Shown one piece after another: positions 1 through 5,791 of a DNA stretch of 5,791 nt. The translations under genes were made by a program, and so were the position numbers. Under the pieces are notes generated by a model. It was not told the DNA's origin. It ran no database searches and saw nothing but the letters and a program-made list of their open reading frames with translations. The first letter of the stretch is position 1; each line of letters starts with the position of its first letter. Source of the stretch: a virus (Duplodnaviria; Heunggongvirae; Uroviricota; Caudoviricetes); IMG/VR virus record IMGVR_UViG_3300013903_000037. One strand, written 5' to 3'.

Positions 1-13
1 AACTCTGTTATTC

Positions 14-134
14 TCTGTAGTCGTGTAATTACTCGAAGAGAGAGCGGCTAAAGCTCAATTACACTCTGCTTTCCTCGTGTAATTTCACTAAGCCTCAATA
101 CAATTCCACTTCCTACTTCTGTAGTCGTGTAATT
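14..134. repeat. Iteron-like repeat array: exact 17-bp direct repeat TCTGTAGTCGTGTAATT at 14-30 and 118-134; third copy of the 10-bp core TCGTGTAATT at 75-84; inverted copy of the 8-bp core (AATTACAC) at 57-64
   Basis: Read directly from the sequence. Direct copies are spaced about 50-54 bp apart in a stretch with no ORF on either strand. Function (origin iterons or operator array) is inference. Confidence 0.7.
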
Positions 135-180
135 GTTTTCGGTGGAAAAGCCAGAGGCGACACCGAAAGAGAATTCTGAT

Positions 181-250
181 CTTATTAATCTTATCTATCT
201 TAGTTAATCTTCTTACTTTATCTTACTTACTTTATCTACTTTATTGTTAA
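181..250. repeat. AT-rich, pyrimidine-rich low-complexity tract with 10-bp periodic tandem units (TCTTACTTTA at 211-220, TCTTACTTAC at 221-230, then TTTATCTACT)
   Basis: Read directly. Strong strand asymmetry (T/C on + strand) and no ORF. Possible DNA-unwinding or bending element next to the iteron array. Confidence 0.55.
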
Positions 251-280
251 TAATAGCTTTATAAGCTCTGTGTAGCTCTC

Positions 281-338
281 TGACGCAAGAAACCGCATTC
301 AGAAAGGGAATCACCTTAGAAAAGTGTTCTTTGCGTCA
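281..338. promoter_or_regulatory. Imperfect inverted repeat TGACGCAAGA (281-290) / TCTTTGCGTCA (328-338), arms about 37 bp apart
   Basis: Read directly. Lies upstream of the first gene. Could be paired half-sites for a DNA-binding protein or a long-range stem. Function unknown. Confidence 0.35.
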
Positions 339-463
339 TAATGTGTTTTATGAAGGATTCAGAGGTGTTTCATAACAGAAATGTATTGAGGCATATTTTT
401 CTAAGCATTACCCAAATATATACGATGACTTTGATATTCCCTTTTAAAAAGTAAGGAGGACTA

Positions 464-742
464 TTGATACAGTATTTAATAAAAAGCAAAGTAGACAGAA
501 TTCAGTGTAATGACACAGGAAAACGCATCTACGAGACACTTGCTTACCTCTATAAAGGAAAGCCAACACCGCTAAAATATAGCGATGTGTTACATCGAGC
601 AGGGTGCTCTGAAGCTGGTTTAAAATTCTGGCTGAAACAGCTATCAAACTTCGGTGTTATAGAGATTAAAGAATTATCTTTCTCTACATTCAATCTCAAA
701 AGACTTTCTAAAGAAATAGAATTCATCTATTCCACTCTCTAA
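464..742 (+). CDS. Small (92 aa) putative winged-helix/HTH DNA-binding protein, TTG start
   Basis: ORF track 464..742. Strong Shine-Dalgarno AAGGAGGA at 453-460, though spacing to the TTG at 464 is short (3-4 nt). No in-frame ATG or GTG exists near the 5' end, so TTG is the only canonical start. The central segment (KYSDVLHRAGCSEAGLKFWLKQLSNFGVIE) has the look of a helix-turn-helix with a wing. Sits next to the repeat array. Confidence 0.5.
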   Translation: MIQYLIKSKVDRIQCNDTGKRIYETLAYLYKGKPTPLKYSDVLHRAGCSEAGLKFWLKQLSNFGVIEIKELSFSTFNLKRLSKEIEFIYSTL

Positions 743-783
743 AATCTCTCTATGTAATTAAAATATAAAAGGAAAACATTATT

Positions 784-900
784 ATGATAGTAGCTATGTA
801 TTGGTTATTGTTCTTTCTCACGTTAGAAGCATATTTCGGGGTGTTTTCCTTTAAAAGAAAAGGAAAAATAAATGGCAAAAAGAAAAAACAACGTTGTTAA
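784..900 (+). CDS. Candidate 38-aa small membrane peptide (MIVAMYWLLFFLTLEAYFGVFSFKRKGKINGKKKKQRC): hydrophobic N-terminal segment plus polybasic tail
   Basis: Hand translation; not in the ORF track because it is short. ATG at 784 preceded by AAAGGA (769-774) at about 9 nt spacing. Overlaps the start of the 872..1282 gene in another frame, so it could also be a chance ORF. Confidence 0.25.
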   Translation: MIVAMYWLLFFLTLEAYFGVFSFKRKGKINGKKKKQRC

Positions 901-1282
901 GAAAATCGGTGATTCAGCTTCTCTTCTAAGTAAACCTAAATCTATTCTAAGACGTAAAGACTTTAAAGAGCTAGTTACGCTCACCAAGCAAAATAGCGCC
1001 CCTGGCGAATGGAAAACAGAGATCATAGAACATTCTCCCTCTGTGCCTTGTGGAGATGAATATATCGCATTACAAGAAATCTTATCTTCAACACCTGGCG
1101 TGTTCTGGAAACCTAAAAAAAGAAAAGAGTATATCGTTGATAGCTCTGATTTACGCAAATACCAGATTTTAGGATTTGAAGACTATAACCACTACGTCGG
1201 TTATCTCGCCACAAATGGCCTAAATAATTTAGTTCCTGAATTCCAAATTTTAGATAATGCTGATCACTATGGAGACTTTTAA
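872..1282 (+). CDS. Hypothetical protein, 136 aa, strongly basic N-terminus (MAKRKNNVVKK...RRKDFK), possibly nucleic-acid binding
   Basis: ORF track. ATG at 872 preceded by a purine-rich AAGGAA (860-865). Stop TAA at 1280-1282 lies one base before the next gene's ATG. Same strand as all other supported genes. Confidence 0.6.
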   Translation: MAKRKNNVVKKIGDSASLLSKPKSILRRKDFKELVTLTKQNSAPGEWKTEIIEHSPSVPCGDEYIALQEILSSTPGVFWKPKKRKEYIVDSSDLRKYQILGFEDYNHYVGYLATNGLNNLVPEFQILDNADHYGDF

Positions 1283-1283
1283 T

Positions 1284-1622
1284 ATGAACAAAAACACATA
1301 TGACACAATTTACTCACTAATTAATTATTATGAGGATGATTACCTCCTGCCTTTAAACCGCGCTGAACTTGAAGCATACAAAGAAAACACGCCAGCGGCA
1401 CTAAATGAGGCGTTTAAACACTGGGATTTAGCTGTGAATGCCTTTGAGCACCTCTCTAAGCGTGTAGAGATGCTCTGTAAGCGTGAAAACGCATACCTGA
1501 CAGCCGATCAGATATGGGAGCTATCAAACTGGATAGAAGATATTGAATCTGATGTTCGCTATGTAGGAGATGGACTTGTTGAACTAGCTCAACGCTTAGG
1601 CGCTACTATCACAGAAGAATAA
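1284..1622 (+). CDS. Hypothetical acidic protein, 112 aa (track ORF 1257..1622 trimmed to the ATG with the best ribosome-binding site)
   Basis: GGAGA at 1271-1275, 8 nt upstream of ATG 1284. The earlier in-frame ATGs at 1257 and 1269 lack a ribosome-binding site and overlap the previous gene. By residue counting the protein has a clear excess of Asp/Glu over Lys/Arg, and its composition suggests mostly helix. Stop TAA at 1620-1622. Confidence 0.6.
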   Translation: MNKNTYDTIYSLINYYEDDYLLPLNRAELEAYKENTPAALNEAFKHWDLAVNAFEHLSKRVEMLCKRENAYLTADQIWELSNWIEDIESDVRYVGDGLVELAQRLGATITEE

Positions 1623-1651
1623 AAAAAGCAACAAAAAAGTTGTAAAATATC

Positions 1652-1680
1652 TTGACATTTCATCTATTGTATGTTAATAT
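1652..1680 (+). promoter_or_regulatory. Near-consensus sigma70-type promoter: -35 TTGACA (1652-1657), 17-bp spacer, extended -10 TGtTAATAT (1672-1680), A/T-rich UP-like tract upstream (1621-1650)
   Basis: Read directly. Predicted transcription start around 1687-1689. Confidence 0.65.
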
Positions 1681-1686
1681 AATTAT

Positions 1687-1910
1687 ATGGGGGTGATTAT
1701 TTTTCCTTTATTGGTTCGATATTAAAAATTCTTCCTGTCATTAAAGGGGAGTAAAATCTCCGCTCCCCGCTTCTCCTCCTTAAGTAAATACTGTGTCATT
1801 ATTACCTCTTTTTTCCTTTGTTATGCATACATCTTGGAGTATGCATAACATAGGGTAATTACATAGGTATGAGTTAATAAAAGGCGGCTTTAAATGCTGC
1901 CTTTTATTTT
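1687..1910 (+). ncRNA. Putative structured non-coding transcript or leader of about 220 nt, running from the predicted start of the 1652-1680 promoter to the intrinsic terminator at 1879-1910
   Basis: No plausible ORF with a ribosome-binding site in this interval. Contains hairpin GGGGAG(1746-1751)/CTCCCC(1763-1768), a single-stranded CU-rich anti-Shine-Dalgarno-like stretch TCCTCCTTA (1774-1782), a perfect 10-bp inverted repeat TTATGCATAC(1821-1830)/GTATGCATAA(1839-1848), and the terminator hairpin. Existence of a discrete RNA is inference. Confidence 0.3.
1879..1910 (+). terminator. Intrinsic (rho-independent) terminator: stem AAAAGGCGGC / GCTGCCTTTT with 7-nt loop, followed by TTTTATTTT
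   Basis: Read directly: 6 G/C-rich pairs including one G-U, extended by A-U pairs, then a T-run. Moderate predicted strength, so it may act as a partial or regulated terminator. Confidence 0.55.
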
Positions 1911-1972
1911 GCCCGTTATGCAACTTAAAAGTTGTATTTCTTACTTTAAACAAGGTAACAAGGTTTATATAA

Positions 1973-2185
1973 ATGTTGTTCTTAAATGATAAAGAGCAAA
2001 TCATCAAGTATAAAGATGAAATGCTGAAAATTAATCCACAAATTACCGAAATGGTAGCTAAATACGCTGGGTGTTCTGTCGAGGAAGTAGAAAGATGTGT
2101 TGAAAAATATTTTTCTCCTTCTTCTCCGTCTACACCTTCCCTTAATGAATTAATCAAATTAAAAGCTAAGGAGATTACTAAATGA
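1973..2185 (+). CDS. Hypothetical protein, 70 aa
   Basis: ORF track. Weak ribosome-binding site (AAGG at about 1961-1964). Stop TGA (2183-2185) overlaps the ATG (2182-2184) of the next gene, which suggests translational coupling. Start codon uncertain; internal ATGs exist. Confidence 0.45.
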   Translation: MLFLNDKEQIIKYKDEMLKINPQITEMVAKYAGCSVEEVERCVEKYFSPSSPSTPSLNELIKLKAKEITK

Positions 2186-2550
2186 TTATTGATTTAGACA
2201 CTCTGTTTCCAGGTCGAAATCGAAAGACTTTCACAGATATTGTAAGTTATTGTACTGATCCGTTTGCCTCTGTAGAAAGCAAGGTTTTTGCTTCTCTTCC
2301 TGCTGATGTTGAGTGCGGCGACTTGATCACCAGCACTGGCGCTAAATATGAATCAGGAGATGATATCTATGTTGTTATGAGTGAATTTGTAACGGCTGGA
2401 GAAAACAAGCCTGTAGATGTGCTACGTAGCAATGCTGGGCTTGTATGCATCAAAGCTGATGCCCTGAATGCTGTAAGTGAAGCAGCAAAAACAGCATTAA
2501 TTAAAAAAGGCTTTCAGCTTGAAGGCTTTAATACGGTTTTCACTTCTTAA
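2182..2550 (+). CDS. Hypothetical protein, 122 aa, immediately upstream of the major capsid gene (positional candidate for a scaffolding, decoration or other head-associated protein)
   Basis: ORF track. Good ribosome-binding site TAAGGAG (2167-2173), 8 nt before ATG 2182. Function is assigned from position only. Confidence 0.6.
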   Translation: MIIDLDTLFPGRNRKTFTDIVSYCTDPFASVESKVFASLPADVECGDLITSTGAKYESGDDIYVVMSEFVTAGENKPVDVLRSNAGLVCIKADALNAVSEAAKTALIKKGFQLEGFNTVFTS

Positions 2551-2568
2551 TAAAAGGAATAATAATAA

Positions 2569-3597
2569 ATGATTCTAGGTAATGATTACGTTGATTTAGC
2601 TCCTTTGTTCTCTGCGCATAGCACTAGAAACTATCTACTGTCTACCCTTGACTTCACTGATCCGGTGGGCGTTAGTTCTCATAAAGTAGCTGTTTCCCAG
2701 CTTGTCGAAAGCAACGAATCTCTCTTTAACAAAGAGACAAGCCGTTTTAGTTCTGAACACAATGTTACTAAGCGTGAACAAGGTAAAGAATGGCTTATCG
2801 AAATCCCGTATTTTCTTCGTGAAGATGTGATCCGTCCTTCTGATGTTCAAGGCAAACGTAAGTCTGGCACTGATTTTCAGGAAACACTCACTGATATTTA
2901 TGCGGAATATATCGCTAAACACCACGTAGCGTATCAGCGCACTAAAGAGAGCGTGCTGGCGGCTTCTTTGTTCTCTGGCAAAACTTACACGCCTAAAACT
3001 GATGATGTGTTAATTGAGTGGAGCAAGCTGTTTAACGTATCACCAATGAAAACCACGGTGAACGCTTCCAGCACGGACACCACGAAGATTTTTAAAGAAT
3101 TTGATCAGATTGCTACTAACATTTTTGAAATCACACAAAGCCAGGCGTCAGCGGTAGAAAGAATTGTTGTTTTCTGTAAACCTGACGCCTTCTCTGCAAT
3201 TCGATTCTCTGCTGGTATGGCAAACGCATTCCAGTATGTAAGCCCACTGGAAGAGGGGAACGTTGTGTATCAGCGTCGTGACCTGCTGCCAGGAGTGACA
3301 GCGTTCACTATTCCAGGAACTAACATCGATGTTGTTAAACTGGTAGATCCGCTACATCTGGCACATATGACCGCAGACGCTGTAGCGGTTCCGAAGTTTG
3401 CTAAAGGCTCTAACGTATATCAGAACATCTACGGGGCTGCTTCCAGCACCTTTGAACTGATTAATGCCGCTCCTGCTGAGGTGTATAGCTATAGCTATGA
3501 ATCTTCTCGTGGTGATGCTGTTAACGTTGTTACAGAGAATAGCCAGATGGTTGTAAACCACGGCGTTGGCTTCTCCGTTCAAATCACTGTTAAATAA
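2569..3597 (+). CDS. Major capsid protein, 342 aa, HK97-fold, apparently of the T7 gp10-like family
   Basis: ORF track. Ribosome-binding site AAAGGA (2553-2558). Recognition is from memory of T7 gp10A (345 aa), not a search: window VVFCKPDAFSAIRF (residues about 200-213) against remembered T7 VFYCDPDSYSAIL (about 206-218); window IEIPYFLREDVIRPSDV against T7 ITIDGLLTADVLIYDIE; similar length and C-terminal character. Followed by a strong terminator, as is typical of highly expressed capsid genes. Confidence 0.7.
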   Translation: MILGNDYVDLAPLFSAHSTRNYLLSTLDFTDPVGVSSHKVAVSQLVESNESLFNKETSRFSSEHNVTKREQGKEWLIEIPYFLREDVIRPSDVQGKRKSGTDFQETLTDIYAEYIAKHHVAYQRTKESVLAASLFSGKTYTPKTDDVLIEWSKLFNVSPMKTTVNASSTDTTKIFKEFDQIATNIFEITQSQASAVERIVVFCKPDAFSAIRFSAGMANAFQYVSPLEEGNVVYQRRDLLPGVTAFTIPGTNIDVVKLVDPLHLAHMTADAVAVPKFAKGSNVYQNIYGAASSTFELINAAPAEVYSYSYESSRGDAVNVVTENSQMVVNHGVGFSVQITVK

Positions 3598-3616
3598 TAT
3601 TTTTAACGTGTAATAG

Positions 3617-3652
3617 AGGCGTGGCGTGTATTCACGCTTCGCCTTTTTTTTT
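3617..3652 (+). terminator. Strong intrinsic terminator: stem AGGCGTGGCGTG / CACGCTTCGCCT (two G/C-rich helices around a small internal loop), loop TATT, followed by a run of 9 T
   Basis: Read directly. Located 20 nt after the capsid stop codon. Confidence 0.75.
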
Positions 3653-3686
3653 ATTTATTTTTTAAATTTTGAGAGGTGATTAAAAT

Positions 3687-3887
3687 ATGGAAGTGATTTT
3701 GAAATCAAAAAATGGTGTACACGTACATTTAGATGCTAATGATTCTAGAGGCTTGTTAAATCTGAAATATCTCTGTTCTCTCCTAGATGTTCCATATGAA
3801 GGAGTAAAAGCCCGTATGTTCAGATTAAACGAGAGTATTGATCAAGCTCTACACCATTTCTTAAGCAAAGAAGGTGGTAAAAAATGA
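3687..3887 (+). CDS. Hypothetical protein, 66 aa
   Basis: ORF track. Ribosome-binding site GAGGTGA (3673-3679), 7 nt before ATG 3687. Stop TGA at 3885-3887, 19 nt before the next gene. Confidence 0.55.
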   Translation: MEVILKSKNGVHVHLDANDSRGLLNLKYLCSLLDVPYEGVKARMFRLNESIDQALHHFLSKEGGKK

Positions 3888-3906
3888 TTAATAAGGGGGA
3901 TTTTAA

Positions 3907-5791
3907 ATGTTAGAAATTAACACTTCTAAAATTAAGAACACAGTTACATTTAGTGTAGATAAAGACAGCTTGAAAAAAGCGAAAGACTCTATTACAGGCT
4001 TAAAGGAATTCGCAGAAAATATCAAGCCAGCTAAATTAAGATTTGATATTGTCACTAAAGGCTATAAGAAAGCACAAAGTGAAGTAGACAAGATTGCTCA
4101 ACAGAAAGCTAAAACAGAAAAGCAGAATCAAAGAGCACAAGCTGCCGCAGCAAGAGCACAGGCAAGGCAACAGGCACAAATAGCAGCACGCAAGGAGAAA
4201 GCAGACTTAAAACTGTTAGACGTTGGATCAAGCATTAGTGCAATGCACCGTCTCTCTGTAGCGGAACAATACAAAGCTATTGCACAGGCTAGAGAAATTG
4301 CCCTCCAATATGAAAGAGGCGCTATTAGTCTGGCACGTATGAATAGCCAGATGAAACGCCTACAACAGCAACAACGTAAGATTAATGGCAACAGAAAAGC
4401 TCAATTAGCCCCCGTTAAGGGAGGAGGATCAGGGAATGCCGCCACTATGGGCGCTCTGTTATTTGGAGGCGCTACGGCTGCTGCTGGCGTGATGGCTGTT
4501 AGTAAAGCGTCGGAGTTTGTTAGTAGCAGTTTCGCTAACGCAGACACCCAAGGGGAGCTAATCCAACGTGCAAAGCTGGGTGGTGTAGACGTTAACCAGA
4601 TGTATAATATTACAGAATGGGCGTATAAAAACGGCGTTGACTCTATGATGGGTGATCAAGGGGCTAGAAAATACCTAGATCAGATGAAAGATGTTAGGGA
4701 ACGTGCCGCAAAATCCTATAGTGAAGCTGAATTGGTGAAAGACAAGAAAACCGGAAAATCAGGGAAATGGAAAGGCGGTGATAACGCTATTAATGAACTT
4801 CTAAACATCGGAGTTATTAACAAAAGCGACCTTAAAAAATTTGCTGATAATCCAGCCGGATTAATTTCTAAGGCTGTTAATGGAATGATGAAAAAAGGGT
4901 TTTCAGATTCTCAAATTGGACAACGTTTAGAAGACCTGGGCGATGATTTGATGCTTACATCAAAATATTGGCAACGTTCCGTTAAAGATGTACAAGAAAG
5001 TATTAACCAGCAAAAAGCCTCTGGAAAATGGCTAACAGAAACACAGCAAGACTCTATTGTTAAATTCAGAGAACTAAACAGACAGCTTTCACAGCTTTCT
5101 GATGCAAGACAAGTAGCATTCGTAGACGGCTTTATGAAATCTCTTGATCCAAAAGTAACGGAAGAGTTTTTGAAAAACCTTTCTAATCTCACTCCGTATT
5201 TTACGAAGCTGGGAGAAGCTACAGGAAGTCTCTTTGAGGCCATTATGAAGATTGTAAACTGGTTTAATCGTAATGATGATAAGACAGATGCTATTCAGAA
5301 AAATTTAGGTGATGCACCGCCATTAAGCAATGACGGAATGAAACAGAATCTTTCTAATCTCGTTCCTGATAAATATAAAGGCGCTGGCACTGCAACAACT
5401 ACACCTGATAATAGTCATTCTCTCTTTAACACGATTAAGGGATTGCTTTTCGATGATAATTCTTCTGTGTCAGATGTAAAAATGTCAGTCAGCGAAGCAC
5501 CGATAACCAATCTCAAACAGGGTGCTTTAAATAATCTTGCAATGACAACTCCGGCTTATAATTTATCTCCTGTGTTTAATCTGAATCCTACATTTGAAGT
5601 GGTAACAGAGGTTCCTCTTACTATTAATTCTGACACATCAAGATTAAGCGATTATGTGGATTTTACAGCGAGAGCAAGTCGGGATAGCTTCTTGAAATCA
5701 TTAACATTAACCAGCTTATCAGGACACGAAGATTATCAGGAAATAAAAGGCGTAAGATATCATCAGACAGATAAAGAACTTGTGCAGAAAG
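3907..5791 (+). CDS. Large virion-type protein, 3'-partial (at least 628 codons, no stop before the window end): N-terminal Q/A/R/K-rich predicted coiled-coil, Gly/Ala-rich hydrophobic glycine-zipper-like segment (residues about 172-199, nt 4420-4503), then a mixed Ser/Asn/Thr-rich region. Candidate internal core, ejection or tape-measure-like protein.
   Basis: Hand translation of frame 1 from ATG 3907 gives an uninterrupted reading frame to the end of the window. Absent from the ORF track, presumably because it has no stop inside the window. Ribosome-binding site AAGGGGGA (3893-3900), 6 nt before the ATG. Composition is typical of phage tape-measure or internal virion proteins. Confidence 0.7.
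   Translation, partial: MLEINTSKIKNTVTFSVDKDSLKKAKDSITGLKEFAENIKPAKLRFDIVTKGYKKAQSEVDKIAQQKAKTEKQNQRAQAAAARAQARQQAQIAARKEKADLKLLDVGSSISAMHRLSVAEQYKAIAQAREIALQYERGAISLARMNSQMKRLQQQQRKINGNRKAQLAPVKGGGSGNAATMGALLFGGATAAAGVMAVSKASEFVSSSFANADTQGELIQRAKLGGVDVNQMYNITEWAYKNGVDSMMGDQGARKYLDQMKDVRERAAKSYSEAELVKDKKTGKSGKWKGGDNAINELLNIGVINKSDLKKFADNPAGLISKAVNGMMKKGFSDSQIGQRLEDLGDDLMLTSKYWQRSVKDVQESINQQKASGKWLTETQQDSIVKFRELNRQLSQLSDARQVAFVDGFMKSLDPKVTEEFLKNLSNLTPYFTKLGEATGSLFEAIMKIVNWFNRNDDKTDAIQKNLGDAPPLSNDGMKQNLSNLVPDKYKGAGTATTTPDNSHSLFNTIKGLLFDDNSSVSDVKMSVSEAPITNLKQGALNNLAMTTPAYNLSPVFNLNPTFEVVTEVPLTINSDTSRLSDYVDFTARASRDSFLKSLTLTSLSGHEDYQEIKGVRYHQTDKELVQK

What the first reader, a model, noticed from the sequence alone, without database searches (positions are those of the whole stretch)
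3907..5791. Large coiled-coil and glycine-zipper protein following the capsid gene (3'-truncated)
At least 628 residues: an N-terminal segment dominated by Q/A/R/K heptad-like repeats (about residues 55-160), then a Gly/Ala-rich hydrophobic stretch (GGGSGNAATMGALLFGGATAAAGVMAVSKA) resembling membrane-inserting glycine-zipper segments, then a long Ser/Asn/Thr-rich region. This combination is typical of tape-measure proteins and of podovirus internal core or ejection proteins that form a trans-envelope channel. Its position right after a T7-like capsid gene, without tail-tube genes in between, favours an internal or ejection protein. No enzymatic motif such as a lytic transglycosylase or peptidase was recognised in the visible part.
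Basis: partly seen in the sequence, partly recalled or inferred. Interest (0 to 1): 0.6.

Follow-up and report, generated by a model that had tools for sequence, protein, structure and literature searches.

The report
Satellite-borne tape measure protein gene
The long ORF is a tail tape measure protein, not a podovirus ejection protein, and it sits on a roughly 12-kb integrative island found in many E. coli genomes that looks like a parasite ("satellite") of the large lytic phi92-like phages.

Summary
However, the last 65 bases of the window (5727-5791) are foreign DNA, the C-terminus of a MurE-like gene. The protein is therefore not truncated. In E. coli chromosomes it is 611 aa and ends ...LSGQSNGG.

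[quoted passage not shown] The capsid gene upstream is lambda-gpE-like, not T7-like.

The genes lie in an 11.7-12.4 kb element bounded by tRNA-derived att repeats. The element carries a tyrosine integrase, iterons plus a replication initiator (deleted in this window's copy), its own capsid protein, and a tube-initiator gene 60% identical to phi92 gp135. It has no portal, terminase, tube or sheath gene. At least 80% of the window is present in 288 of 5,426 complete E. coli genomes.

TMP copies are intact and under purifying selection (dN/dS 0.13-0.22). Their ends and a central block resemble helper TMPs.

The best reading is a phage satellite that builds chimeric tails, as shown in 2026 for Vibrio PLE. 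I found no description of this E. coli family.

The parts
3907..5726 (+). Tape measure protein gene, codons 1-606 and the first two bases of codon 607. The native gene is 611 codons and ends 16 nt beyond 5726 in E. coli chromosomes.
   Evidence: ORF. PHROG 16051, E 1.4e-52. phi92 gp134 colinear, E 4e-35. phiWec190 TMP, E 9e-60. PDB 21vq_V, E 6e-39. Native end.
5727..5791 (+). Foreign sequence fused in frame: the C-terminal codons of a MurE-like gene. This is a chimeric window end, not part of the protein.
   Evidence: Bases 5721-5791 are 100% identical to MT835527, inside a 490-aa MurE-like ORF ending ...GKGHEDYQEIKGVRYHQTDKELVQKAMEDLAR. No E. coli match. The junction was not found in viral or JGI metagenome contigs.
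3889..3975 (+). Ribosome-binding region and the first 23 codons (MLEINTSKIKNTVTFSVDKDSLK). This N-terminal peptide is shared with helper-type TMPs.
   Evidence: Bases 3889-3994 are 81% identical at the nucleotide level to phi92-like phages. Codons 1-23 differ from phi92 by 1 internal amino-acid change (S16T), 7 synonymous changes and the start codon (ATG here, TTG in phi92). Residues 1-25 are 84% identical to gp134.
4069..4386 (+). Residues 55-160: Ala/Gln/Lys/Arg-rich helical 'ruler' region. It is shorter than in phi92, lacking the Gly/Pro linker and a charged helix of about 45 aa.
   Evidence: Composition. Helices 46-110 and 118-163 in a low-confidence model. Gaps relative to gp134.
4420..4509 (+). 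Residues 172-201: Gly/Ala-rich hydrophobic segment.
   Evidence: KD19 maximum of 1.60 at residues 180-198. The equivalent segment in phi92 gp134 scores 1.62 and aligns with it.
4687..4956 (+). Residues 261-350: the central block most conserved with helper TMPs (KDVRER...WKGGD...IN...QIG...DDLM).
   Evidence: 38-52% identity to the phi92 and phiWec190 TMPs, against 7-25% in most other bins. 26 columns are invariant across 6 sequences.
5572..5724 (+). Residues 556-606: conserved C-terminal region (...VPLTINSDTSRLSDYVDFTARAS..SF.KSLTL..LSGQS). The corresponding residues 631-656 of phi92 gp134 lie inside the baseplate.
   Evidence: 55% identity to phiWec190 and 64% to the Kluyvera element. Location in phi92 from cryo-EM (PMC13450770).
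3687..3887 (+). 66-aa ORF directly upstream of the TMP gene. It is conserved at this position throughout the element family. Function unknown.
   Evidence: Homologues in the E. coli, Kluyvera and Citrobacter elements. No similarity to phi92 gp133. AF2 pLDDT 77, with no PDB fold match.
2569..3597 (+). Major capsid protein of the element, 342 aa, lambda-gpE/HK97 type.
   Evidence: Pfam Phage_cap_E, E 6e-14. 21% identity over the full length to phi92 gp124. Best phage matches are Pseudomonas myoviruses at 24%.
2182..2550 (+). 122-aa ORF preceding the capsid gene, where phi92 has its cement protein gp123. No detectable homology to gp123.
   Evidence: Position. No similarity to gp123. Homologues precede the capsid gene in the Kluyvera and Citrobacter elements.
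3616..3650 (+). Terminator-like hairpin and T-run between the capsid gene and the 66-aa ORF.
   Evidence: Consensus scan only.
379..399 (+). Junction of a deletion of about 1.5 kb that removed two small ORFs and the replication-initiator gene present in most copies of the element.
   Evidence: Window 1-399 matches L004 9001-9398, and window 379-5726 matches L004 10919-16230. The deleted 217-aa protein matches PHROG 270, replication initiation, E 2.6e-11.

Best explanation
The ORF encodes the tape measure protein (TMP) of a roughly 12-kb integrative, satellite-like element of Escherichia. The likely helper phages are the strictly lytic, 145-150 kb phi92-like myoviruses (Stephanstirmvirinae).

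Shown:
- The protein is homologous to and colinear with helper TMPs.
- The element has att repeats, an integrase, iterons plus a replication initiator, its own capsid protein, and a tube-initiator gene immediately after the TMP gene.
- The element has no portal, terminase, tube, sheath or other baseplate genes.
- TMP copies are intact, under purifying selection and mosaic.

Inferred mechanism. When a helper phage infects, the element expresses its TMP, and in E. coli also its own tube initiator. The TMP's helper-like C-terminus docks in the helper's baseplate hub. The helper's tube and sheath then polymerise around the satellite TMP. The helper-like N-terminal peptide ends assembly at the helper's terminator. 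The result is a chimeric tail that joins capsids made from the element's own coat protein.

The satellite TMP is 40-48 aa shorter than helper TMPs, which predicts a tail roughly 5-7 nm shorter. The Gly/Ala hydrophobic segment would act as in other TMPs, inserting into the envelope after ejection to help DNA cross.

The direct precedent is Vibrio cholerae PLE. It encodes a TMP and a baseplate hub protein that replace those of phage ICP1 in PLE virions.
For: TMP identity:
- PHROG 16051, E 1.4e-52, covering profile positions 197-655 of 660.
- tblastn finds only TMPs of phi92-like and Phapecoctavirus phages.
- BLASTP is colinear with phi92 gp134 and phiWec190.
- PDB 21vq_V, E 6e-39.
- phi92 cryo-EM assigns gp134 as the trimeric TMP with its C-terminus inside the baseplate, and gp135 as the hexameric tube initiator.

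Neighbouring gene: 60% identical to gp135, Pfam Dit_like E 3.5e-29, PDB tube initiators.

Element:
- 23-nt and 25-nt att direct repeats lie 12,382 and 11,672 bp apart. One pair uses the 3' end of tRNA-Gly.
- Two different integrases and two insertion sites.
- Replication initiator plus iterons.
- The same gene order recurs in Kluyvera and Citrobacter, where TMP identity is only 29%.
- 624 of 5,426 E. coli genomes have some match and 288 hold at least 80% of the window.

Selection:
- 22 TMP copies with a complete ORF are all 608-613 aa, with dN/dS 0.13-0.22.
- The first 23 codons differ from phi92 mainly by synonymous changes.
- Identity to helper TMPs is concentrated at residues 1-25, 261-350 and 556-611.
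- Modules reassort between copies.

Precedent: PLE TMP and BhuB are incorporated into PLE virions, ICP1's are excluded, and PLE tails are 10 nm shorter (PMC12987554).
Against: - There is no experimental evidence that this element excises, replicates, is packaged or transfers, or that any phi92-like phage induces it.
- The only element-sized metagenome contig I examined is the integrated form.
- No tail assembly chaperone was recognised. The 66-aa ORF upstream has no similarity to phi92 gp133 and no fold match.
- The capsid protein is only 21% identical to the presumed helper's, so how it would use the helper's portal, scaffold and terminase is unexplained.
- The second E. coli TMP clade has termini that match no sequenced phage.
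- This window's copy lacks the replication initiator and may itself be immobile.
Confidence: 0.6

Rival explanations
1. Assembly-interference defence. The island's TMP and tube initiator, and perhaps its capsid protein, act as dominant-negative decoys. They co-assemble with the infecting phage's baseplate and tube components and poison tail formation. This would protect the bacterial population whether or not the island is ever packaged.
For: - The termini and central block that would contact helper parts are conserved, while the rest has diverged.
- Tail assembly is a known target of defences carried on mobile elements: Tai and Rta of PLE11.
- The window's copy has lost its replication gene yet keeps all structural ORFs intact.
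- The element is frequent in E. coli.
Against: - Known tail-assembly inhibitors are small unrelated proteins, not TMP homologues.
- PADLOC models match none of the ten island proteins tested.
- The integrase, att sites, replication initiator and iterons, a separate capsid gene, and spread to different tRNA sites and genera all point to an element that moves horizontally in particles.
- The two functions are not exclusive. PLE does both.
Confidence: 0.2
2. Decaying remnant of a prophage. The TMP gene would be a leftover with no current function.
For: - The structural gene set is incomplete.
- RefSeq calls nearly every gene hypothetical.
- IS insertions and a deletion occur in some copies.
Against: - dN/dS is 0.13-0.22, and all 22 loci with a complete ORF have a TMP of 608-613 aa.
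- The same compact gene order is kept at 29% TMP identity in other genera.
- att repeats are intact at two different sites.
- The only phages with homologous TMPs are virulent 145-150 kb myoviruses. Their lack of integrases and their lytic lifestyle rest on general knowledge of the subfamily, not on a test here.
Confidence: 0.05
3. Podovirus internal core or ejection protein that forms a trans-envelope channel.
For: - The hydrophobic Gly/Ala segment and the long helical region.
- No tube or sheath gene in the window.
Against: - There is no homology to any ejection or internal-core family in Pfam or PHROGs.
- The protein is homologous over its full length to a myovirus TMP whose position in the virion has been solved.
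- The next gene is a tube initiator.
- The capsid is gpE-like, not T7-like.
Confidence: 0.01

Closest known systems
Tape measure protein gp134 of Escherichia phage phi92 (PDB 21vq chain V) and its homologues in Justusliebigvirus and Phapecoctavirus (PHROG 16051)
   Same: - Colinear from the first to the last residue.
- The N-terminal peptide is almost identical.
- It has a helical region, a hydrophobic Gly/Ala segment, a central conserved block and the C-terminal ...LTL..SGQS motif.
- It is followed by a tube-initiator gene, as in the phage.
   Different: - Overall identity is only 26-28%.
- It is 40-48 aa shorter, lacking the Gly/Pro linker and a charged helix.
- It is encoded on a 12-kb chromosomal island rather than in a 148-kb lytic phage.
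- It is not preceded by homologues of gp132/gp133.
PLE satellites of Vibrio cholerae: the TAC-TMP-BhuB module that builds chimeric tails with phage ICP1 (Mathur, Boyd et al., Nature 2026, PMC12987554)
   Same: - It is a small integrative element that appears to parasitise a large lytic myovirus.
- It has its own replication initiator.
- Its TMP is a distant homologue of the helper's and shorter than it.
- It carries a more conserved baseplate-core gene beside the TMP gene. This gene is present in some family members and absent in others, as reported for PLEs.
   Different: - No sequence relationship to ICP1 was seen in the phage collection (no Vibrio phage among the hits). PLE sequences themselves were not compared.
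- It has a tyrosine integrase.
- It encodes its own major capsid protein, whereas PLE virions contain ICP1-encoded capsid proteins.
- No recognisable chaperone or Rta-like inhibitor was identified.
- There is no experimental evidence for this element.
Capsid-forming PICIs (cf-PICIs)
   Same: - It is a chromosomal island with an integrase and its own HK97-type capsid protein.
- Some cf-PICIs are reported to carry putative tmp genes.
   Different: By general knowledge, cf-PICIs carry a complete head and packaging module: portal, protease, terminase small subunit and connectors. Only a capsid protein and small unknown ORFs are present here.

Membership tests
Myovirus tape measure protein, phi92 gp134 type (PHROG 16051) | Significant sequence homology over most of the length | tested here: met
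   PHROG E 1.4e-52. BLASTP E 4e-35 and 9e-60. PDB 21vq_V E 6e-39.
Myovirus tape measure protein, phi92 gp134 type (PHROG 16051) | Conserved N-terminal peptide and C-terminal baseplate-docking motif in the same order | tested here: met
   Residues 1-25 are 84% identical to gp134. Residues 556-611 are 36-55% identical to helper TMPs and include the LTL..SGQS motif.
Myovirus tape measure protein, phi92 gp134 type (PHROG 16051) | Gene lies immediately upstream of the tube-initiator/baseplate-core gene | tested here: met
   A 237-aa gene, 60% identical to gp135, starts 34 nt after the TMP stop codon in E. coli loci. It lies outside the window.
Myovirus tape measure protein, phi92 gp134 type (PHROG 16051) | Preceded by tail assembly chaperone gene(s) | tested here: inconclusive
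   A conserved 66-aa ORF lies upstream. It has no similarity to phi92 gp133 and no PDB fold match.
Myovirus tape measure protein, phi92 gp134 type (PHROG 16051) | Occupies the tail-tube lumen and sets tail length | not testable with these tools
   Needs virion mass spectrometry and EM.
Podovirus internal core / ejection proteins | Homology to a known ejection-protein family, or a podovirus gene context | tested here: not met
   No such Pfam or PHROG match. The capsid is Phage_cap_E type. The next gene is a myovirus tube initiator.
Phage satellite with a chimeric-tail module (PLE-like in function) | Discrete integrative element with att repeats and an integrase | tested here: met
   Direct repeats of 23 and 25 nt lie 12,382 and 11,672 bp apart, with tyrosine integrases of 406 and 424 aa at one end.
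Phage satellite with a chimeric-tail module (PLE-like in function) | Own replication module | tested here: met
   Iteron-like 22-24 nt tandem repeats and a 217-aa initiator (PHROG 270, E 2.6e-11) in complete copies. The module is deleted in this window's copy.
Phage satellite with a chimeric-tail module (PLE-like in function) | Lacks the genes needed to make a virion alone (portal, terminase, tube, sheath, baseplate wedge, fibres) | tested here: met
   The gene lists and family scans of whole elements show none of these.
Phage satellite with a chimeric-tail module (PLE-like in function) | Induced, packaged and transferred by a helper phage, with the satellite TMP present in the particles | not testable with these tools
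   No experiment was possible. The element-sized contig L035 is the integrated form.
Phage satellite with a chimeric-tail module (PLE-like in function) | Sequence homology to PLE proteins (membership of the PLE family proper) | not tested
   No PLE sequences were available. No Vibrio phage appeared among the tblastn hits.
cf-PICI | Complete capsid and packaging module (portal, protease, terminase small subunit, connectors) | tested here: not met
   Only a capsid protein is recognisable.

The most novel reading that the evidence does not exclude
This could be the tail-core gene of an undescribed family of Enterobacteriaceae satellites that parasitise strictly lytic phi92-like and Phapecoctavirus phages, a group I understand to be used in phage therapy. 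Such satellites would make both their own capsid shell and a chimeric tail, using their own TMP with or without their own tube initiator. Their TMP termini would be swapped or held constant to fit whichever helper is circulating.
Probability: 0.5. Interest if true: 0.75.

Novelty: new variant of a known kind. Interest (0 to 1): 0.62.

Why it matters
If the reading holds, about 5-11% of sequenced E. coli carry a parasite of a major group of virulent coliphages.

It would be a second, independent case of a satellite rebuilding the core of its helper's tail, after Vibrio PLE. It would also be the first in a genetically tractable host with a solved helper structure (phi92, PDB 21vq).

Three questions would become testable:
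- why satellites replace the tape measure protein;
- which parts of a TMP must match the baseplate and which are free to vary;
- whether such islands limit these phages in therapy and host-range screens.

For annotation, hundreds of 'hypothetical proteins' can be named tape measure protein.

Tried and rejected
- **66-aa ORF structure.** AlphaFold2 gave pLDDT 77 (a beta-hairpin plus two helices). Foldseek against the PDB found nothing with E below 1. It therefore cannot be called a chaperone, an HTH protein or an Rta analogue.
- **TMP structure.** Single-sequence AlphaFold2 gave pLDDT 42.6, usable only as a secondary-structure hint, and no fold search was made.
- **PADLOC.** No hit for ten island proteins.
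- **Rfam.** Only the flanking tRNA was found.
- **Junction at 5726.** Absent from IMG/VR and JGI metagenome contigs, so the origin of the chimeric end is unresolved.
- **IMG/VR loci.** To judge from their contig names, all derive from isolate genomes, so they give no evidence of packaging.
- **ENA contig L035 (12,264 bp).** It looked like an excised element, but it holds both att copies plus chromosomal flanks and has no terminal overlap.
- **Other comparisons with phi92.** The 122-aa ORF shows no similarity to cement protein gp123, and the 66-aa ORF shows none to gp133.
- **Second E. coli TMP clade.** Its termini match no phage.
- **Literature.** Six searches found no description of this E. 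coli element, including searches by RefSeq protein accession. The library is not exhaustive.
Full report
**1. The observation**

The frame from ATG 3907 is open to the end of the window, 628 codons.
- Residues 55-160 are 21% Ala, 17% Gln, 10% Lys and 9% Arg.
- Residues 172-201 are 30% Ala and 27% Gly. They contain the most hydrophobic 19-residue window of the protein (Kyte-Doolittle 1.60).
- The last 141 residues are rich in Ser, Leu, Thr and Asn.

A single-sequence AlphaFold model is of low confidence (pLDDT 42.6). It places long helices at 46-110 and 118-163 and leaves the C-terminal 130 residues mostly non-helical. Pfam finds no domain.

Two points need correcting.

First, the ORF is not cut off by the window. 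Window 1-5726 is 99.98-100% identical to E. coli chromosomes. Bases 5721-5791 are 100% identical to the 3' end of a MurE-like gene in an unrelated faecal scaffold. They match no E. coli genome. The six bases 5721-5726 are common to both sources. In E. coli the gene ends 16 nt past the junction, giving a protein of 611 aa that ends ...LTLTSLSGQSNGG. The window's residues 607-628 are therefore foreign, most likely from a chimeric assembly. The junction is absent from IMG/VR and JGI metagenome contigs.

Second, the upstream capsid protein is lambda-gpE-like (Pfam Phage_cap_E, E 6e-14), not T7-like.

**2. What the protein is**

PHROGs places it in family 16051, 'tail length tape measure protein', with E 1.4e-52. 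The match runs to position 655 of 660 in the profile.

tblastn against 50,697 phage records finds 134 matching records. By organism name and record length, the listed ones are 141-151 kb phi92-like or Phapecoctavirus phages (Stephanstirmvirinae), including some labelled Klebsiella, Salmonella, Serratia or Campylobacter phages. Where the matched gene is annotated, it is called a tape measure protein.

BLASTP shows colinearity from residue 1 to the last residue with phi92 gp134 (659 aa; 55% identity over residues 1-66, 26% over 86-611) and with the phiWec190 TMP (651 aa; 28%, E 9e-60). The protein alone finds PDB 21vq chain V, phi92 gp134, at E 6e-39.

The 2026 cryo-EM study of phi92 assigns gp134 as the trimeric TMP, with residues 631-656 resolved inside the baseplate. 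It assigns gp135 as the hexameric tube initiator (PMC13450770).

The Gly/Ala hydrophobic segment has an equally hydrophobic counterpart at the aligned position in gp134 (KD 1.62). It is a normal feature of this TMP family, not a sign of a podovirus ejection protein.

**3. Where the gene sits**

In E. coli CEA601S the TMP gene is followed after 34 nt by a 237-aa gene. That gene is 60% identical to phi92 gp135 (Pfam Dit_like, E 3.5e-29; PDB 21vq_N, E 2e-78). A tyrosine integrase follows on the opposite strand.

Direct repeats mark the ends of the element:
- In strain M21170, a 23-nt repeat consisting of the 3' end of tRNA-Gly recurs 12,382 bp away, just beyond the integrase.
- In CEA601S, a 25-nt tRNA-3'-end-like repeat recurs 11,672 bp away, within a tandem array of islands downstream of a P22-like prophage.

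The two elements have different integrases (32% identical) but share the same cargo.

Complete copies read in this order: att, serine invertase, iteron-like 22-24 nt tandem repeats, two small ORFs, a 217-aa replication initiator (PHROG 270, E 2.6e-11), five small ORFs, a capsid protein, a 66-aa ORF, the TMP, the tube initiator, the integrase, att. There is no portal, protease, terminase, tube, sheath, wedge or fibre gene.

The capsid protein is only 21% identical to phi92 gp124, and at most 24-25% identical to any phage capsid protein in the collection.

Some part of the window matches 624 of 5,426 complete E. coli genomes. 288 genomes hold at least 80% of it, always on the chromosome. The protein database lists 773 relatives. 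The 120 listed are from E. coli, E. fergusonii and E. albertii, are 607-616 aa long, and are nearly all named 'hypothetical'.

The same order (a protein of about 125 aa, a capsid protein of about 345 aa, an ORF of about 65 aa, then the TMP) occurs in Kluyvera georgiana and a Citrobacter species. TMP identity there is 29%. In the Kluyvera locus an integrase follows as well. The Kluyvera TMP is 43% identical to Phapecoctavirus TMPs over residues 232-618, and that element has no tube initiator.

**4. Signs of function**

All 22 loci with a complete ORF have a TMP of 608-613 aa. Pairwise dN/dS is 0.13-0.22.

Identity to helper TMPs is concentrated in three places:
- residues 1-25: 84% to phi92;
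- residues 261-350: 38-52%;
- residues 556-611: 36-55%.

Most other bins are 7-25% identical.

Within the first 23 codons, the window differs from phi92 by one internal amino-acid change, seven synonymous changes and the start codon, ATG here and TTG in phi92. The peptide is therefore being held constant; it has not simply been copied recently.

The satellite TMPs lack phi92's Gly/Pro linker and a charged helix of about 45 aa. The modules reassort: L002 and L012 have near-identical termini (dS 0.05-0.11) but a divergent middle (dS 0.9). A second E. coli clade has other termini that match no sequenced phage.

**5. Mechanism**

The pieces fit a phage satellite: integration, replication, its own coat protein, two tail-core genes copied from a lytic myovirus lineage, and nothing else needed for a virion.

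The closest experimental precedent is Vibrio cholerae PLE. PLEs encode a chaperone, a TMP and a baseplate hub protein that are 20%, 20% and 41% identical to those of phage ICP1. PLE virions contain the PLE TMP and hub protein and exclude ICP1's, and their tails are 10 nm shorter. Not all PLEs carry the hub gene. The authors note putative tmp genes in other satellites (PMC12987554).

By analogy, I propose that this TMP docks through its conserved C-terminus in the helper's hub. In E. coli this would occur inside a ring of the element's own tube initiator. The TMP would then template helper tube and sheath polymerisation and be capped through its helper-like N-terminus.

The TMP is 40-48 aa shorter than helper TMPs. 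That predicts a tail shorter by about 7 nm at 1.5 Å per helical residue, or about 5 nm by the PLE ratio.

All of this is inference. Nothing here shows induction, packaging or transfer. The one element-sized metagenome contig I examined is the integrated form.

**6. Rivals**

- **Dominant-negative decoy.** The TMP might act as a decoy in a tail-assembly defence. Known inhibitors of that kind (Tai, Rta) are small unrelated proteins, and PADLOC finds nothing. The two roles could coexist.
- **Dead prophage remnant.** This is contradicted by the selection data, the conserved architecture and the intact att sites.
- **Podovirus ejection protein.** This is excluded by the homology.

**7. Novelty**

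The protein is a new member of a known TMP family. The setting is a variant of a kind recognised only in 2026.

Unlike PLE, this element encodes its own capsid protein and uses a tyrosine integrase. Unlike cf-PICIs, it lacks a complete head module.

Six literature searches, including searches by protein accession, found no description of it. That does not prove absence.

**8. Caveat on this copy**

The window's copy has a deletion of about 1.5 kb at 379-399 that removed the replication initiator. This copy may be a non-mobile derivative, although its structural genes are intact.

Noticed in passing
window 5727-5791: The last 65 bases belong to a MurE-like gene of an unrelated organism, fused in frame to the TMP gene across a 6-nt shared stretch (AGGACA). 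This is most likely an assembly chimera. It adds 22 false residues to the ORF.
   Followed up: yes
window 379-399: Compared with most copies of the element, about 1.5 kb is missing here. The missing block holds two small ORFs and the 217-aa replication initiator. The breakpoints share about 20 nt.
   Followed up: yes
window 464-742 (+): A 92-aa TTG-start ORF is conserved at 89-100% in all clade-1 copies. It is annotated in some RefSeq genomes (WP_021513209) but not in CEA601S. It has a weak DnaD-like PHROG match (E 0.095) and lies just downstream of the iterons and the Rep gene.
   Followed up: partly
L002 11564-11670 and L004 8549-8692 (upstream of the window): Tandem 22-24 nt iteron-like repeats (4-5 copies) lie next to the replication-initiator gene. 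They are a probable origin of replication for the element.
   Followed up: partly
L015 6831-7862 compared with window 2569-3597: Elements with closely related integrases and tube initiators carry two capsid-protein types that BLASTP cannot relate to each other. One type is 47-48% identical to the Kluyvera and Citrobacter capsid proteins. The head module therefore seems to be exchanged independently of the tail module.
   Followed up: partly
L030 11908-12381: The Kluyvera element has an unrelated 157-aa ORF where the E. coli elements have the tube initiator. It has a weak HEPN_RiboL-PSP match (E 0.006) and a PHROG 5483 match (E 5e-10). It may be defence cargo.
   Followed up: no
window 3616-3650: A strong terminator-like hairpin with a T-run lies right after the capsid gene, upstream of the 66-aa ORF and the TMP gene. 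This suggests the capsid and tail genes are expressed at different levels.
   Followed up: no
window 3687-3887: The 66-aa ORF is conserved directly upstream of the TMP gene in every family member examined. It has no detectable relatives of known function. It could be a chaperone, a regulator or an inhibitor of the helper's TMP.
   Followed up: partly
L004 7315-7854 (-): A serine DNA invertase/resolvase (Pfam Resolvase, E 1e-33) sits near the tRNA end of many copies, in addition to the tyrosine integrase at the other end.
   Followed up: no
phage collection hits: Five records named 'Campylobacter phage' (A150, A145, C3, A110a, B15; about 146-151 kb) carry TMPs that score the same as E. coli phi92-like and Phapecoctavirus phages. 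Their host labels look doubtful.
   Followed up: no
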